From the IMG/VR virus record IMGVR_UViG_3300021962_000032: a DNA stretch of 64,000 nt. One strand, given 5' to 3'. Positions 15,202 to 52,552 of the stretch are shown here, piece by piece. The stretch comes from a virus. The notes beneath the pieces are model-generated. The model was given only the letters and a program-made list of their open reading frames with translations. It had not been told where the DNA came from and made no database searches. Positions within the stretch are counted from its first letter, which is position 1, and each line of letters begins with the position of its first letter. A program made the translations under genes and the position numbers.

Positions 15202-15240
15202 ATTTTACACAAAAAAAGAGAGGGAGTCAAGTCCCTCTCT
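15202..15240 (-). terminator. Rho-independent terminator overlapping a sigma70 promoter
   Basis: AGAGAGGGAC-TTGA-CTCCCTCTC-T7 hairpin; TTGACT-N17-TAAAAT spans 15202-15230. Confidence 0.6.
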
Positions 15241-15246
15241 AATTTA

Positions 15247-15354
15247 TTAAGCAACTTGTGGTTGCTTTGCCATATTCAATTGTGCTTCTTTAAGTTTTTC
15301 GTCTTTTTCTTTTTTATCTTTAATAATCTGAAGAGGATTTAATTTGACAATCAT
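15247..15354 (-). CDS. Small basic protein (35 aa)
   Basis: MIVKLNPLQIIKDKKEKDEKLKEAQLNMAKQPQVA; ATGA overlap with the DUF4278 gene and GAGG SD. Confidence 0.55.
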   Translation of the reverse strand: MIVKLNPLQIIKDKKEKDEKLKEAQLNMAKQPQVA

Positions 15355-15509
15355 TTTGCCACCTCACCATTATTACAAGGACGATAAGCAATTCCACGAT
15401 ATGTATTTTGTGGATGTGCTGGTGCATGTGTTTTAGAATACCACTTACGATATTCTTCTTTAGGTGTGTCGGTATTATACTGACAACCTCTATAGGTTGC
15501 TTGTGACAT
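15351..15509 (-). CDS. DUF4278-family protein (52 aa)
   Basis: MSQATYRGCQY...NTYRGIAY with two YRG.xY motifs; AAGGAG SD; lies downstream of glutamine-riboswitch-like motifs. Confidence 0.8.
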   Translation of the reverse strand: MSQATYRGCQYNTDTPKEEYRKWYSKTHAPAHPQNTYRGIAYRPCNNGEVAK

Positions 15510-15540
15510 TAGGTTTTCTCCTTAGTTTTTAGGTTAAAGA

Positions 15541-15710
15541 GCGTTCCTTCAGTCGGCTTTTGCGTCTATTTTGCACTCCTTCGGAGATATTTGCTTCACT
15601 TCCCAAATCAAATCATTTCGGACCTGCTTTGGCAATGAGTGTGCATTAACCCGAGAAACAATCAATTGTGCTTGTAAACAAGTTAGAATGAGTGCTTCCA
15701 TAGATGAACG
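15541..15710 (-). ncRNA. Glutamine-riboswitch-like aptamer 2 (glnA/Downstream-peptide family), split by an internal ORF
   Basis: 5' half CGTTCA-TCTAT and 3' half ATAGA-CGCAAAAGCCGACTGAAGGAACG; CGTTC/GAACG and TCTAT/ATAGA pair. Confidence 0.65.
15549..15701 (-). CDS. 50-aa ORF nested in aptamer 2
   Basis: MEALILTCLQAQLIVSRVNAHSLPKQVRNDLIWEVKQISPKECKIDAKAD*; ATG lies in the 5' stem strand, TGA in the conserved CCGACTGAAGG. Confidence 0.6.
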   Translation of the reverse strand: MEALILTCLQAQLIVSRVNAHSLPKQVRNDLIWEVKQISPKECKIDAKAD

Positions 15711-15712
15711 AT

Positions 15713-15765
15713 CCGTTCCGAGTCGGCTTACTTCCGTTTGCTATTTGCGGATAGCAAATGAACGT
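15713..15765 (-). ncRNA. Glutamine-riboswitch-like aptamer 1 (glnA/Downstream-peptide family)
   Basis: CGTTCA-TTTGCTAT-ccgcaa-ATAGCAAA-CGGAAGTAAGCCGACTCGGAACG; outer stem CGTTC/GAACG and GGAAGTAA core. Confidence 0.75.
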
Positions 15766-15771
15766 AGAGGC

Positions 15772-15822
15772 ATTCTAATCCTCATTATTTATGTAGTCAA
15801 GTCAGTTTGTAACACTTGTTAC
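15772..15822 (-). promoter_or_regulatory. Sigma70 promoter with an upstream NtcA-like box
   Basis: TTGACT(15795-15800)-N17-TAGAAT(15772-15777); GTA-ACACTTGT-TAC at 15809-15822. Confidence 0.65.
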
Positions 15823-23827: not shown

Positions 23828-23924
23828 TAGTAAGACCATCAGGGACATGGTGGAGTTACTATGCTCCCCGCACCCTCAGCGGGGATATGAGAGACGTATT
23901 TACCCTCCCTTAGGTCTCGGTTAA
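23828..23924 (-). ncRNA. PhotoRC-II-like structured psbA leader
   Basis: GAGACC...GTCTC, CCCCGC-TGAGGGT-GCGGGG and ACCAT-GTCCCTG-ATGGT hairpins with complementary AGGG/CCCT loops, directly upstream of psbA. Confidence 0.75.
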
Positions 23925-23971
23925 CGGGAGCACAATCTTTAAGAAACTTTACATTCCTTAACTTGTTGATG

Positions 23972-50894: not shown

Positions 50895-50979
50895 CGGAGA
50901 GGGTGGGATTTGAACCCACGGATGCTTTCACATCGCTGGTTTTCAAGACCAGTGCCATAAACCACTCGACCACCTCTCC
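50895..50979 (-). tRNA. tRNA-Ser(UGA)
   Basis: GGAGAGG acceptor; anticodon loop CTTGAAA; long variable arm; GGTTCAAATCC. Confidence 0.95.
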
Positions 50980-50984
50980 AAGAT

Positions 50985-51236
50985 TTAACGGATTTCAAAA
51001 TCCAATTTACGAACTTTTCGTGCTTTTCTTGCTTCTTGGAATGCAAGATCCTGATCGGACAACAATCTTTGTTCTTTTTTTGAAGGTTTTGCACCATTGA
51101 TCATAACCACTTGTGTTAAATCAACAGCAGAAACTTTGTCATCACGAACTTCCATTTTATTGGAACATCCGCAAACCTGTATTTTTGGTGAACTTATTAT
51201 TTCCGTATTGCAGGACTTGCATCTAACAACTAACAT
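50985..51236 (-). CDS. Zn-binding hypothetical protein
   Basis: CKSC...CGCSN; RKVRKLDFEIR. Confidence 0.75.
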   Translation of the reverse strand: MLVVRCKSCNTEIISSPKIQVCGCSNKMEVRDDKVSAVDLTQVVMINGAKPSKKEQRLLSDQDLAFQEARKARKVRKLDFEIR

Positions 51237-51277
51237 TTTACTAATATCTTAACATTATATTCATATCTTATATATGA

Positions 51278-51349
51278 TGGGAAATGTCGGACTTGAACCA
51301 ACGACTTACTGCGTGTAAAGCAGTCACTCTACCACTGAGTTAATCTCCC
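51278..51349 (-). tRNA. tRNA-Val(UAC)
   Basis: Cloverleaf; CTGC-TTTACAC-GCAG. Confidence 0.93.
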
Positions 51350-51351
51350 GA

Positions 51352-51560
51352 ACAGTGGTGAGTGTCCACCACTTGCACCAGACACTTGATGCGATTTTCA
51401 CCGTGTTAGAGGACGGCAAATAAAAGGTTTCCAGTAGCCTTTCTTATCTCCCATAAGGAAGATGTAGGTATCGAACCTACAAAGGATAGTCCCTTAAGGA
51501 ACTACTGGGAATTCCACCCAGAACCAATATGAAAGAATCGAACATTTCCAACCCTTTCAA
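51352..51560 (-). ncRNA. Unassigned structured RNA (multibranch with T-loop hairpin and kissing hairpins)
   Basis: At least eight hairpins or long-range helices fill the spacer between two tRNAs; see findings. Confidence 0.65.
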
Positions 51561-51633
51561 CTGGGGCGGCAGGGATCGAACCTGCGACCTAGATGTTAAC
51601 AGCATCCCGCTACTACCGCTGAGCTACACCCCA
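51561..51633 (-). tRNA. tRNA-Asn(GUU)
   Basis: Cloverleaf; GATG-CTGTTAA-CATC. Confidence 0.95.
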
Positions 51634-51953
51634 TTATGTTGTTCATGATGTATTTCTCGATGGCAGTTAGCACATACGAGAATACATTTATCTGCTTCTG
51701 CCTTCTGCTTTTCAATGGCAACGGTGGTTCCAAGGTTTTTAGATTTTTTAGTTGTGGGATCGAGATGATGGAACTCTAAGGCAGAGATACATTTATCATA
51801 TCCACAACGTTCACACTTACCACCTTTATATTCTACTAAAAGAAGTTTGTTTTTCTTACGTCTTTTAATGACACTTGCTTTGTTTGCTTCTTTACGATCA
51901 GAATACGTTCTATTTTCTTTAGGCATTTGGCAGAAGTTTGATTGTTCTACCAT
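51624..51953 (-). CDS. HNH endonuclease (free-standing)
   Basis: GGKCERCGY...LEFHHLDP...KCILVCANCHREIH; TATAAATA at 51954-51961. Confidence 0.9.
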   Translation of the reverse strand: MVEQSNFCQMPKENRTYSDRKEANKASVIKRRKKNKLLLVEYKGGKCERCGYDKCISALEFHHLDPTTKKSKNLGTTVAIEKQKAEADKCILVCANCHREIHHEQHNGV

Positions 51954-51964
51954 TATTTATAAAA

Positions 51965-52170
51965 TGTGTGGGTGGTGAGATTCTGTCATACTCACAACTG
52001 GAAGGTCTCACTGACAACGTAATTATTCCAGCACTTTTAGGTTCCTTGGCATTGGATTCTGTAACTCTGGTCTCCCAGTTTTACAGCGGGCACCACCCCT
52101 ACCTTACTATACAATATCCAGTGCTTGACCACATAGATTTTTCTGTCACACCCTTTGGAAATCCGTCGAT
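51965..52170 (-). ncRNA. manA-like structured RNA motif
   Basis: GGGTGTGACAGAAAAATCTATGTGGTC start; GGGTGGTG/CACCACCC helix; CTGTAA..CTGG-GAGA-CCAG..TTACAG; tRNA-adjacent. Family assigned from memory. Confidence 0.6.
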
Positions 52171-52177
52171 CTCCAAG

Positions 52178-52249
52178 AGCGGGGTATCGGAATCGAACCG
52201 ACGACATCTAACTTGGAAGGATAGCGTTCTACCGCTGAACTAACCCCGC
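52178..52249 (-). tRNA. tRNA-Gly(UCC)
   Basis: Cloverleaf; anticodon loop CTTCCAA. Confidence 0.93.
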
Positions 52250-52250
52250 A

Positions 52251-52366
52251 AATAAGAAAAGCAGATGCATATTGTGAATTTAAAATCCACGGACTTCATA
52301 CTTTTCTCTTTTTCAAGTAGGTTTACTGTTGCTTACCCTTAAAACCCACTACAAAATGGATAAGCA
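52251..52366 (-). ncRNA. Unassigned pseudoknotted RNA preceding tRNA-Gly
   Basis: TGCTTATCC/GGGTAAGCA stem whose loop AGTGGGTTT pairs with downstream AAACCTACT; second long hairpin. Confidence 0.5.
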
Positions 52367-52373
52367 GAAGACA

Positions 52374-52402
52374 ATCATATCACACATTGATAAGATTGTC
52401 AA
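52374..52402 (-). promoter_or_regulatory. Sigma70 promoter inside the tRNA cluster
   Basis: TTGACA-N17-TATGAT. Confidence 0.7.
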
Positions 52403-52403
52403 G

Positions 52404-52476
52404 TGGAGAATAGGGGACTTGAACCCCTTACCTTGGCCTTGCAAAGACCCTGCTCTACCAAATGAGCTAATTCCCC
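52404..52476 (-). tRNA. tRNA-Ala(UGC)
   Basis: GGGGAAT acceptor with G3:U70; anticodon loop TTTGCAA. Confidence 0.95.
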
Positions 52477-52552
52477 TGGCGACTCAGGTTGGGGTCGAAC
52501 CAACGACCGACTGCTTAGAAGGCAGTTGCTCTATCCACTGAGCTACTGAGTC
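52477..52552 (-). tRNA. tRNA-Arg(UCU) with encoded CCA
   Basis: Cloverleaf; CTGC-CTTCTAA-GCAG. Confidence 0.95.

What the first reader, a model, noticed from the sequence alone, without database searches (positions are those of the whole stretch)
15541..15765. Tandem glutamine-riboswitch-like aptamers, the second with a complete 50-codon ORF inside its loop
Seen (minus strand): aptamer 1 is CGTTCA-[TTTGCTAT/ATAGCAAA]-CG-GAAGTAAGCCGACTCG-GAACG. A few nt later aptamer 2 begins CGTTCA-TCTAT and only closes ~130 nt downstream as ATAGA-CG-CAAAAGCCGACTGAAG-GAACG. The ATG of a 50-aa ORF (MEALILTC...KIDAKAD) lies in the 5' strand of the TCTAT/ATAGA stem, and its TGA lies inside the conserved CCGACTGAAGG core, so the ORF precisely replaces the hairpin loop. 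Established: glnA and Downstream-peptide RNAs are glutamine riboswitches, glnA often in tandem, found upstream of DUF4278 genes in cyanobacteria and their phages. Inference: aptamer folding and translation of the nested ORF are mutually exclusive. Glutamine binding would bury this start codon and change DUF4278 expression, while ribosomes would melt the aptamer. That would be a ligand- and ribosome-coupled switch that covariance searches would miss because of the insertion.
Basis: partly seen in the sequence, partly recalled or inferred. Interest (0 to 1): 0.85.

Follow-up and report, generated by a model that had tools for sequence, protein, structure and literature searches.

The report
Genes nested inside phage glutamine riboswitches
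In this cyanophage and hundreds of relatives, a small protein-coding gene sits inside a hairpin loop of a glutamine-sensing RNA switch, so sensor folding and translation of that gene cannot happen together; I found no description of this layout, and standard searches miss these phage riboswitches.

Summary
On the minus strand, a promoter is followed by glutamine aptamer 1 (Rfam RF01739, 31.3 bits). Three bases later comes a second aptamer whose 5' half (15710-15700) and 3' half (15569-15541) are separated by a 50-codon ORF.

S-PM2 and S-CREM1 carry the same second aptamer with an ordinary short hairpin (33.3-33.5 bits). The ORF is a real gene: pN/pS is 0.18 in its interior. Synonymous sites are about 7-fold less variable where it overlaps the aptamer core.

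In IMG/VR, 87 of 115 assessable copies of this aptamer core carry a nested ORF of about 47-66 codons. The closing helix P2 co-varies with ORF type. Aptamer 1 is nested too in 51 of 122 distinct cases, and model phage P-SSM4 has both aptamers nested.

All 176 distinct nested aptamers have an ATG within 18 nt of the first helix strand, and 158 have at least one start-codon base inside P2. In 175 the stop lies in or within 12 nt of the aptamer's 3' half. Mutual exclusion of folding and translation therefore follows from geometry. Glutamine dependence and its direction are inferred. Aptamer 2 lacks the ligand-contacting G23.

The parts
15809..15822 (-). NtcA-box-like palindrome GTA-N8-TAC upstream of the -35 hexamer
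   Evidence: Read directly. The same motif appears upstream in S-PM2 and DSL-LC03. Binding was not tested.
15772..15800 (-). Sigma-70-type promoter, TTGACT-17-TAGAAT, placing the transcript start next to aptamer 1
   Evidence: 10 of 12 consensus matches. Relatives have equivalent TATAAT boxes just upstream of the first CGTTCA.
15714..15764 (-). Aptamer 1: complete glutamine-type aptamer with canonical junction ACGGAAGUA but no GAA before the P1 3' strand
   Evidence: RF01739 hit at 15710-15766, 31.3 bits, E 9e-5. Homologous aptamers score 34.2-35.6 bits.
15700..15710 (-). Aptamer 2, 5' half: P1 5' strand CGTTC, A, and P2 5' strand TCTAT holding the A and T of the start codon
   Evidence: Invariant in 84 loci. 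Matches the start of the ORF-less aptamer 2 of S-PM2 and S-CREM1.
15549..15701 (-). Nested 50-codon gene (phrog_504 family; two-helix, two-Cys small protein)
   Evidence: pN/pS 0.18 in codons 5-44. Codon-position entropy pattern. phrog_504 E 2.5e-5. AF2 model with two helices, pLDDT 87.
15690..15695 (-). 5' strand of the P2 extension (GCACTC), pairing with 15573-15578
   Evidence: Four of the six pairs are in the RNAalifold consensus, with pair types GU 23, GC 13, AU 11, AC 2 at the variable pair. Present in the MFE fold.
15573..15578 (-). 3' strand of the P2 extension (GAGTGC)
15541..15569 (-). Aptamer 2, 3' half: P2 3' strand ATAGA, variant junction CGCAAAAG, mini-P3 region, GAA, P1 3' strand GGAACG, C60. 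It encodes the last seven codons and the TGA of the nested gene
   Evidence: Identical by eye over 24 nt to the S-PM2 aptamer 2, which scores 33.3 bits. Synonymous variability is 0.09 here against 0.67 in the ORF interior.
15518..15541 (-). Predicted hairpin pairing CTCTTTA (starting at C60) with the Shine-Dalgarno TAAGGAG of the downstream gene
   Evidence: Present in the MFE and centroid folds. Same logic as proposed for gifB (PMC6212724). Not tested.
15351..15509 (-). DUF4278 / IF17-like small protein gene (52 aa)
   Evidence: Pfam PF14105 at 20.9 bits, below the 25.3 cut-off, E 4.7e-4. phrog_5049 E 1.8e-10.
15247..15354 (-). 35-codon ORF overlapping the DUF4278 stop (ATGA overlap)
   Evidence: Coding status not tested.
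15217..15240 (-). Intrinsic-terminator-like hairpin and T run ending the roughly 550-nt unit

Best explanation
A short early-type transcript (about 15765 to 15215, minus strand) starts with two glutamine-riboswitch aptamers ahead of an IF17-like (DUF4278) gene. The second aptamer is split. Its P2 hairpin loop holds a translated 50-codon gene. The start codon of that gene lies in the 5' strand of P2. Its last seven codons and its stop are the aptamer's conserved 3' core. Shown: the gene is under protein-level selection, both aptamer halves are under RNA-level selection, and the helix that closes across the gene co-varies in relatives. Consequence of geometry: when P1 and P2 are formed the start codon is buried, and a ribosome finishing the gene must unzip P2, the junction and the P1 3' strand. 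Inferred mechanism: on a fresh transcript the start codon is free until the 3' half is made about 150 nt later, so the nested protein is made first or at low glutamine. When glutamine is high the aptamer pair closes, shuts off further initiation on the nested gene, and releases C60 and the anti-Shine-Dalgarno strand, as proposed for gifB, so the IF17-like protein is made. One mRNA would then choose between two small proteins according to nitrogen status, with ribosomes and ligand competing for the same RNA.
For: Architecture.
ORF-less homologues with the same halves score as RF01739: S-PM2 33.3 bits and S-CREM1 33.5 bits; L131 34.6 and L112 35.4.
Coding: pN/pS 0.18 with pS 0.67 in codons 5-44; second-position entropy near 0 against third-position 0.5-1.8; an in-frame codon indel; 195 protein clusters; a stand-alone homologue exists.
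RNA constraint: pS 0.09 in codons 45-50 and 0.15 in codons 1-4.
Long-range helix: RNAalifold consensus and MFE fold. P2 co-varies across 70 distinct strand pairs, with 6.44 contiguous pairs against 4.01 +/- 0.21 for shuffled partners, and three or more pair types at positions 3-5. The stems of L211 and L212 are wholly different but both perfect.
Generality: 87 of 115 assessable aptamer-2 cores are nested; 51 of 122 distinct aptamer-1 instances are nested; P-SSM4 has both nested and P-SSM2 one.
Geometry: 176 of 176 have an ATG within 18 nt of CGTTCA, 158 have at least one start-codon base in the contiguous stem, and 175 of 176 have the stop in the core, in P2, or within 12 nt before it.
On-switch logic and C60/anti-SD: PMC6212724 and PMC11477058. 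The SD hairpin is predicted here.
Against: No ligand-binding, structure-probing, Ribo-seq or reporter data exist for any nested aptamer.
Aptamer 2 lacks G23 and two further junction bases, so its own glutamine binding is doubtful.
In the window's type the cis linchpin pairs would be G.G and C.C.
All phage aptamers score at or just below the Rfam gathering score.
The window's transcript does not fold unusually well (z -1.63).
Within the ORF50 clade P1 and P2 never vary, so covariation comes only from more distant relatives.
A decayed variant (L209, L210) keeps the ORF and the DUF4278 gene with the ORF stop overlapping the SD. That fits co-expression or coupling rather than a reciprocal choice.
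The terminating ribosome would also cover the anti-SD strand, which could switch the downstream gene on rather than off.
Confidence: 0.6

Rival explanations
1. Passenger gene. The P2 loop of the aptamer tolerates any insert, and a small gene has lodged there for compactness. It is transcribed with the operon, but its translation has no regulatory link to the aptamer. The riboswitch still only controls the DUF4278 gene.
For: P2 length is variable in the family, and cyanobacterial aptamers with 60-108 nt between the strands exist. A stand-alone homologue shows the protein does not need the aptamer. A variant without the 3' half keeps both genes.
Against: A passenger would be expected to carry its own ribosome-binding site anywhere in the loop. 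Instead all 176 distinct nested aptamers, covering several unrelated ORF families and both aptamer positions, have an ATG within 18 nt of CGTTCA, and 158 place at least one start-codon base in the P2 5' strand, with no Shine-Dalgarno apparent where read by eye. 175 stop in or next to the 3' half.
Confidence: 0.2
2. Interlocked sensor. The two aptamers are not independent. The ligand-sensing unit is composite. It uses aptamer 1's 5' strand, P2 and canonical junction (G23 at 15734). It also uses aptamer 2's canonical GAAGGAACG 3' strand and C60 (15541). The whole nested gene then lies inside the sensor. This refines the best explanation rather than replacing it.
For: Canonical features are split. 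The ACGGAAGUA junction is only in aptamer 1, and the GAA plus GGAACGC strand is only in aptamer 2. Aptamer 1 N23 and aptamer 2 N60 are Watson-Crick in 147 of 147 distinct tandems, while the cis pairs are G.G and C.C in 70. The P1 strands of both aptamers are identical, and the MFE fold pairs aptamer 1's 3' strand with aptamer 2's 5' strand.
Against: The covariation has only two states and largely follows clades. Only one independent change lies on well-supported branches, against 10 on the best tree. L211-type phages have a fully canonical, self-contained nested aptamer 2. No structural precedent is known to me.
Confidence: 0.3
3. Relic. A gene insertion destroyed aptamer 2. The two halves persist because the 5' half now serves as the gene's initiation region, and the 3' half encodes its C-terminus and the anti-SD strand.
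For: Aptamer 2's junction deviates from the family consensus at ligand-contacting positions. Rfam does not detect it.
Against: The same deviant junction occurs in intact ORF-less aptamers, so it predates or is independent of nesting. P2 complementarity is maintained by compensatory change across ORF families. Synonymous sites are frozen exactly over the aptamer core. A protein C-terminus alone would not fix third positions.
Confidence: 0.07
4. Not a gene. The 130-nt insert is structured non-coding RNA and the open frame is incidental.
For: The insert is closed by helices and has some internal pairing in predicted folds.
Against: pN/pS is 0.18 with near-saturated synonymous change. Variation shows three-base periodicity. 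Indels are in frame. The frame is open in every one of 176 distinct nested aptamers. There is a PHROG family and 45 clusters at the 50% identity level. Internal helices show little covariation.
Confidence: 0.03

Closest known systems
Glutamine riboswitch, type 1 (glnA RNA, Rfam RF01739), single or tandem, upstream of gifB / DUF4278 genes
   Same: P1 CGUUC/GAACG, a P2 hairpin, a junction of ACGGAAGUA type, a GAAGGAACGC 3' strand, tandem arrangement, a DUF4278 gene downstream, and an anti-SD strand starting at C60.
   Different: A whole translated gene lies in the P2 loop, with its start in P2 and its stop in the core. Aptamer 2 lacks G23. Cis linchpin pairs are impossible in the window's type. 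Scores sit at or below the gathering score. The split copies are invisible to the covariance model.
Riboswitch leaders with a small ORF whose translation shapes the leader: Salmonella mgtA/mgtL (own knowledge), M. tuberculosis B12 and M-box switches with uORFs (PMC11260477, PMC12810186; titles and abstracts seen)
   Same: A ligand-sensing RNA and a translating ribosome act on one leader, and ribosome position changes the RNA structure.
   Different: In those cases the ORF lies in the expression platform, downstream of the aptamer or beside it, and is usually a short sensor peptide. Here a conserved 47-69-aa protein gene is enclosed by the aptamer's own helices and overlaps its binding core.
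Group I introns carrying homing-endonuclease ORFs in peripheral loops (review PMC3984707, listed; details from own knowledge)
   Same: A protein gene is looped out of a hairpin of a functional folded RNA. The ORF ends can extend into core elements. Translation and RNA folding can interfere.
   Different: That RNA is a ribozyme and the ORF is a mobility gene. There is no ligand sensing and no downstream gene under control.
Dual-function RNAs (RNAIII/hld, SgrS/SgrT; own knowledge)
   Same: A regulatory RNA that also encodes a small protein.
   Different: Those are trans-acting base-pairing RNAs, and the ORF is not inside a metabolite-binding aptamer.

Membership tests
Glutamine riboswitch RF01739, aptamer 1 (15764-15714) | Covariance-model score at or above the gathering score (35 bits) | tested here: not met
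   31.3 bits, E 9e-5 in a local search. Orthologous aptamers in relatives score 34.2-35.6 and 45 bits.
Glutamine riboswitch RF01739, aptamer 1 | P1, a P2 hairpin, and the ACGGAAGUA junction with G22 and G23 | tested here: met
   The alignment to the model shows all of these. It lacks the GAA before GGAACG.
Glutamine riboswitch RF01739, aptamer 2 (15710-15700 plus 15569-15541) | Covariance-model match | tested here: not met
   No hit at E<=10 on the native sequence. A search of a loop-deleted sequence could not be run with these tools. ORF-less orthologues with the same halves score 33.3-35.4 bits.
Glutamine riboswitch RF01739, aptamer 2 | P1 and P2 helices supported by comparative data | tested here: met
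   P2 covariation across 70 distinct strand pairs. L211 and L212 have different perfect stems. P1 never varies, so it is uninformative.
Glutamine riboswitch RF01739, aptamer 2 | Ligand-contacting G22/G23 and the G23-C60 linchpin | tested here: not met
   The junction reads CGCAAAAG, with C at position 23, and C60 is C, so the cis pair would be C.C. A Watson-Crick partner exists only in aptamer 1.
Glutamine riboswitch (either aptamer) | Selective binding of L-glutamine and ligand-dependent gene control | not testable with these tools
   Needs in-line probing, ITC and reporters.
Glutamine riboswitch | Association with DUF4278 / IF17-like genes | tested here: met
   The downstream ORF matches PF14105 weakly (20.9 bits, cut-off 25.3) and phrog_5049 at 1.8e-10. 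The association is documented in PMC6212724.
DUF4278 (PF14105), gene 15509-15351 | Pfam score at or above the gathering score | tested here: not met
   20.9 bits against 25.3. The gene has YRG repeats by eye and sits in the expected context, so it is best called DUF4278-like.
phrog_504, nested gene 15701-15549 | Profile match | tested here: met
   E 2.5e-5 over residues 6-48. The same family matches the nested ORFs of DSL-LC03, S-SRM01 and DSL-LC02, and nothing in S-PM2 or S-CREM1.
Leader-peptide or uORF-controlled attenuators | A short sensor ORF whose translation rate, not its product, is the signal | tested here: not met
   The nested product is under purifying selection along its length and has stand-alone homologues, so the protein itself matters.

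The most novel reading that the evidence does not exclude
Cyanomyoviruses widely use a previously unrecognised riboswitch design in which one or two protein genes live inside the aptamers. Ligand and ribosome compete for the same RNA. A single short mRNA makes the nested two-Cys proteins when glutamine is low or the transcript is new, and the IF17-like glutamine-synthetase inhibitor when glutamine is high. In the window's type the two aptamers are additionally interlocked, exchanging linchpin partners across the nested gene.
Probability: 0.35. Interest if true: 0.92.

Novelty: new variant of a known kind. Interest (0 to 1): 0.86.

Why it matters
1. I found no description of a conserved protein gene enclosed by the helices of a metabolite-binding aptamer and overlapping its core. 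If it is functional, it is a new way to couple ligand sensing to translation, and a compact way to get two outputs from one leader.

2. It changes the count of phage riboswitches. A 2017 survey found glutamine aptamers in only two cyanophage genomes and concluded that phages rarely use riboswitches (PMC5473149). Here the model phage P-SSM4 has two aptamers that Rfam cannot see, and three quarters of the sampled IMG/VR copies are nested.

3. It assigns a regulatory context (nitrogen status, next to an IF17-like gene) to small hypothetical proteins. These include phrog_504 for the window's gene, and T4-GC 429 and 430 for the two nested ORFs of P-SSM4.

4. It gives a clean experimental system of about 270 nt for studying competition between ribosome and ligand.

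Tried and rejected
Natural ORF-less orthologues were used instead.
- Covariation inside the ORF50 clade is uninformative, because P1 and P2 are invariant. The G/A versus C/T association at the extension pair is not significant by eye.
- hhalign between the aptamer-1 ORF family and ORF50 gave no homology (probability 0.4%), although both share a two-Cys pattern.
- Pfam finds nothing for ORF50. Foldseek against PDB gives no hit at E<=0.001. ESM Atlas returns only unnamed clusters below 0.9. The protein's function stays unknown.
One was recovered from metagenome contigs.
It was rerun without them.
- A genome-contig scan for canonical 3' halves found 104 short and 13 longer spacings in cellular genomes. 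Read by eye, none looked like a phage-style nested ORF. Only the first 120 rows were seen.
- Ames and Breaker 2011 is not held, so prior mention there cannot be excluded.

Full report
**What the window is.** Rfam finds manA and PhotoRC-II RNAs and six tRNAs. The neighbouring genes are speD- and thyX-like by eye. The closest DNA relatives are Kyanoviridae (T4-like cyanomyoviruses) from fresh and estuarine water: DSL-LC03, S-SRM01, DSL-LC02 and S-CREM1, and also S-PM2.

**The observation.** On the minus strand, a sigma-70-type promoter (TTGACT-17-TAGAAT, 15800-15772) places the transcript start next to 15765.
- Aptamer 1 runs from 15764 to 15714. It matches Rfam Glutamine RF01739 over the whole model at 31.3 bits (gathering score 35, local E 9e-5).
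- After a 3-nt linker comes CGTTCA-TCTAT (15710-15700). The ATG of a 50-codon ORF (15701..15549) uses the last two bases of TCTAT.
- About 130 nt later come ATAGA (15569-15565), a junction CGCAAAAG, GCCGAC, TGA (15551-15549), then AGGAACGC.
- The DUF4278-like gene follows at 15509-15351. It scores 20.9 bits on Pfam, below the cut-off, and 1.8e-10 on phrog_5049.
- A terminator-like hairpin lies at 15240-15217.
- Rfam reports nothing for the second aptamer even at E<=10.

**Is the second element an aptamer?** S-PM2 and S-CREM1 have the same tandem in the same place, but with an ordinary short hairpin in aptamer 2. Their 3' halves are the same as the window's. The S-PM2 half is identical by eye over 24 nt. 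These ORF-less copies score 33.3 and 33.5 bits, and two IMG/VR copies score 34.6 and 35.4 bits. That is as good as aptamer 1. The window's two halves are therefore homologous to the two halves of a recognised glutamine-type aptamer.

**Is the ORF a gene?** Three GenBank phages and at least 280 IMG/VR contigs encode it. A protein search gives 195 clusters.
- In 49 distinct sequences, second codon positions are almost invariant while third positions vary freely.
- Nei-Gojobori proportions for codons 5-44 are pS 0.67 and pN 0.12, a ratio of 0.18.
- Length changes are whole codons.
- The product matches phrog_504. AlphaFold2 predicts two helices (residues 2-20 and 25-38, pLDDT 87) with Cys8 and Cys43.
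- Its function remains unknown.
- A stand-alone homologue without aptamer halves exists beside what looks like an HNH-type gene.

**Are the halves under RNA-level selection?** Synonymous variability falls from 0.67 in the interior to 0.09 in codons 45-50, which overlap the aptamer core, and to 0.15 in codons 1-4. The untranslated CGTTCATCT is invariant in 84 loci, while the neighbouring linker varies.

**Does the RNA close across the gene?** RNAalifold on the 49 sequences returns P1, P2 and a 4-bp extension as the consensus. The window's MFE fold contains P2 and the extension. Within this clade the helices do not vary, so I looked further afield.
Of these, 27 have a short hairpin, 1 has a 49-nt spacing, 5 are cut by contig ends, and 87 have a 144-201-nt spacing.
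- Each distinct long-spaced sequence listed holds an ORF of 47-66 codons from very different sequence families, marine as well as freshwater. Most read the core as D-A-K-A-D-stop.
- The P2 strands differ between families and stay complementary. Examples are TCTAT/ATAGA, TCCCA/TGGGA, TCCTTA/TAAGGA and TCTTAT/ATAAGA.
- Over 70 distinct strand pairs the mean contiguous pairing is 6.44, against 4.01 +/- 0.21 for shuffled partners (maximum 4.64 in 2000 shuffles). Three or more pair types occur at positions 3, 4 and 5. Relatedness inflates such tests.
- Another lineage has a fully canonical aptamer 2 (ACGGAAGUA ... GAAGGAACGC) closed by perfect 10-bp or 13-bp P2 stems of different sequence around a homologous ORF.

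**Generality.** Aptamer 1 is also split in 51 of 122 distinct instances. The inserts are a 62-68-aa marine family whose stop lies in the core or in the P2 3' strand, and a 66-69-aa freshwater family that looks to have a signal peptide.
- P-SSM4 has both aptamers nested (PSSM4_169.2 and 169.3, annotated hypothetical, T4-GC 429 and 430). Rfam finds no glutamine aptamer there.
- P-SSM2 has aptamer 2 nested, with the ORF unannotated in one record.
- P-SSM3, P-RSM3, P-RSM4, S-TIM4 and P-TIM40 carry tblastn-detectable homologues of a marine nested ORF. Their aptamer context was not inspected.
- Across 176 distinct nested aptamers, every one has an ATG within 18 nt of CGTTCA. At least one start-codon base lies in the contiguous P2 stem in 158. 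The stop lies in the core in 139, in the P2 3' strand in 8, within 12 nt before it in 28, and further away in 1.
- In a sample of cellular genomes, 104 canonical 3' halves had short hairpins. By eye, none of the 13 longer spacings looked like a phage-type nested gene.

**How it probably works.**
- Shown: the gene is real, the split aptamer is real, the start codon is buried in P2, and the stop is in the core.
- Established knowledge: an initiating 30S subunit needs the start region single-stranded, and a terminating ribosome covers roughly a dozen bases beyond the stop. Glutamine aptamers upstream of gifB act as on-switches in which ligand-induced pairing of G23 with C60 is thought to melt a helix that masks the ribosome-binding site (PMC6212724; PMC11477058).
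- In the window, C60 (15541) is the first base of CTCTTTA, which is predicted to pair with the TAAGGAG of the DUF4278 gene.
- Inference: the nested gene is translated while the aptamer is open, that is on new transcripts or at low glutamine. Ribosomes on it keep the aptamer open. Glutamine-stabilised closure blocks further initiation and turns on the IF17-like gene.
- The opposite polarity is not excluded. The terminating ribosome would also cover the anti-SD strand, giving translational coupling. A decayed variant (L209, L210) simply overlaps the ORF stop with the SD.

**A complication.** Aptamer 2 has C where G23 should be, and its junction is two bases shorter. In the window's type the cis linchpins would be G.G in aptamer 1 and C.C in aptamer 2. 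Yet aptamer 1 N23 pairs with aptamer 2 N60 in 147 of 147 distinct tandems (G-C in 79, C-G in 68), and aptamer 2 N23 pairs with aptamer 1 N60 in 138 of 147. The canonical junction is in aptamer 1 and the canonical 3' strand is in aptamer 2. The pair may therefore act as one interlocked sensor that spans the nested gene. On a tree of the ORF interiors the two sites change together 10 times, but only once on well-supported branches. This remains a lead.

**Literature.** Searches of the held library found the glnA and Downstream-peptide description (PMC2864571), the gifB work, the S-CREM1 annotation and a survey reporting glutamine aptamers in only two cyanophage genomes (PMC5473149). None mentions genes inside the aptamers. 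Ames and Breaker 2011 is not held.

**Verdict.** The structural interpretation is supported and generalised. The regulatory mechanism is plausible but untested. I classify it as a new variant of a known riboswitch class, of high interest.

Noticed in passing
window 15734 and 15541 (also 15562 and 15713); loci L001-L216: The linchpin positions of the two aptamers are complementary only crosswise. Aptamer 1 N23 and aptamer 2 N60 are Watson-Crick in 147 of 147 distinct tandems, while the cis pairs are G.G and C.C in 70 of them. This suggests strand- or linchpin-swapped tandem aptamers.
   Followed up: partly
L215 (P-SSM4) 452-881; L017, L047 and others about 1235-1490: Aptamer 1 also carries nested genes in many phages. 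There are two unrelated-looking families of 62-69 aa, and the freshwater one looks to have a signal peptide. P-SSM4 has both aptamers nested and no Rfam glutamine hit.
   Followed up: partly
window 15809-15822: GTA-N8-TAC, an NtcA-box-like palindrome centred about 50 nt upstream of the inferred start. The same motif appears upstream in S-PM2 and DSL-LC03.
   Followed up: no
L209 and L210, about 1150-1375: A decayed variant. Aptamer 1 and the 3' half of aptamer 2 are lost, the 5' half and the nested ORF are kept, and the ORF stop TAG overlaps the Shine-Dalgarno of the DUF4278 gene.
   Followed up: partly
window 15247-15354; L004 1609-1755: The 35-codon ORF overlapping the DUF4278 stop resembles, by eye, the C-terminal half of the single longer S-CREM1 protein (a shared KLKEAQL motif). 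The two window ORFs may therefore be a split form of one protein, or the S-CREM1 protein a fused form.
   Followed up: no
window about 15727-15722 and 15557-15552; L046, L063, L082, L062, L003: The bases inside the mini-P3 region vary. Aptamer 1 has GCCGAC, GACGAC or GACAAC, and aptamer 2 has GCCGAC, GTTGAC, GAAGAC or GGTGAC. In some phages CAAC in aptamer 1 faces GTTG in aptamer 2, which could be a loop-loop contact.
   Followed up: no
window 15706-15718: The P1 3' strand of aptamer 1 and the P1 5' strand of aptamer 2 form a GAACG-GAT-CGTTC hairpin in the MFE fold. This alternative to both P1 helices is built into every tandem with this linker.
   Followed up: no
L337 601-747: A stand-alone homologue of the nested protein family, next to what looks like an HNH-type gene on a 52-kb metagenome contig, with no aptamer halves around it.
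   Followed up: partly
window 51965-52175, 23851-23942, 50895-52552: manA RNA (103.5 bits), PhotoRC-II RNA (74.5 bits) and six tRNA genes.
   Followed up: no
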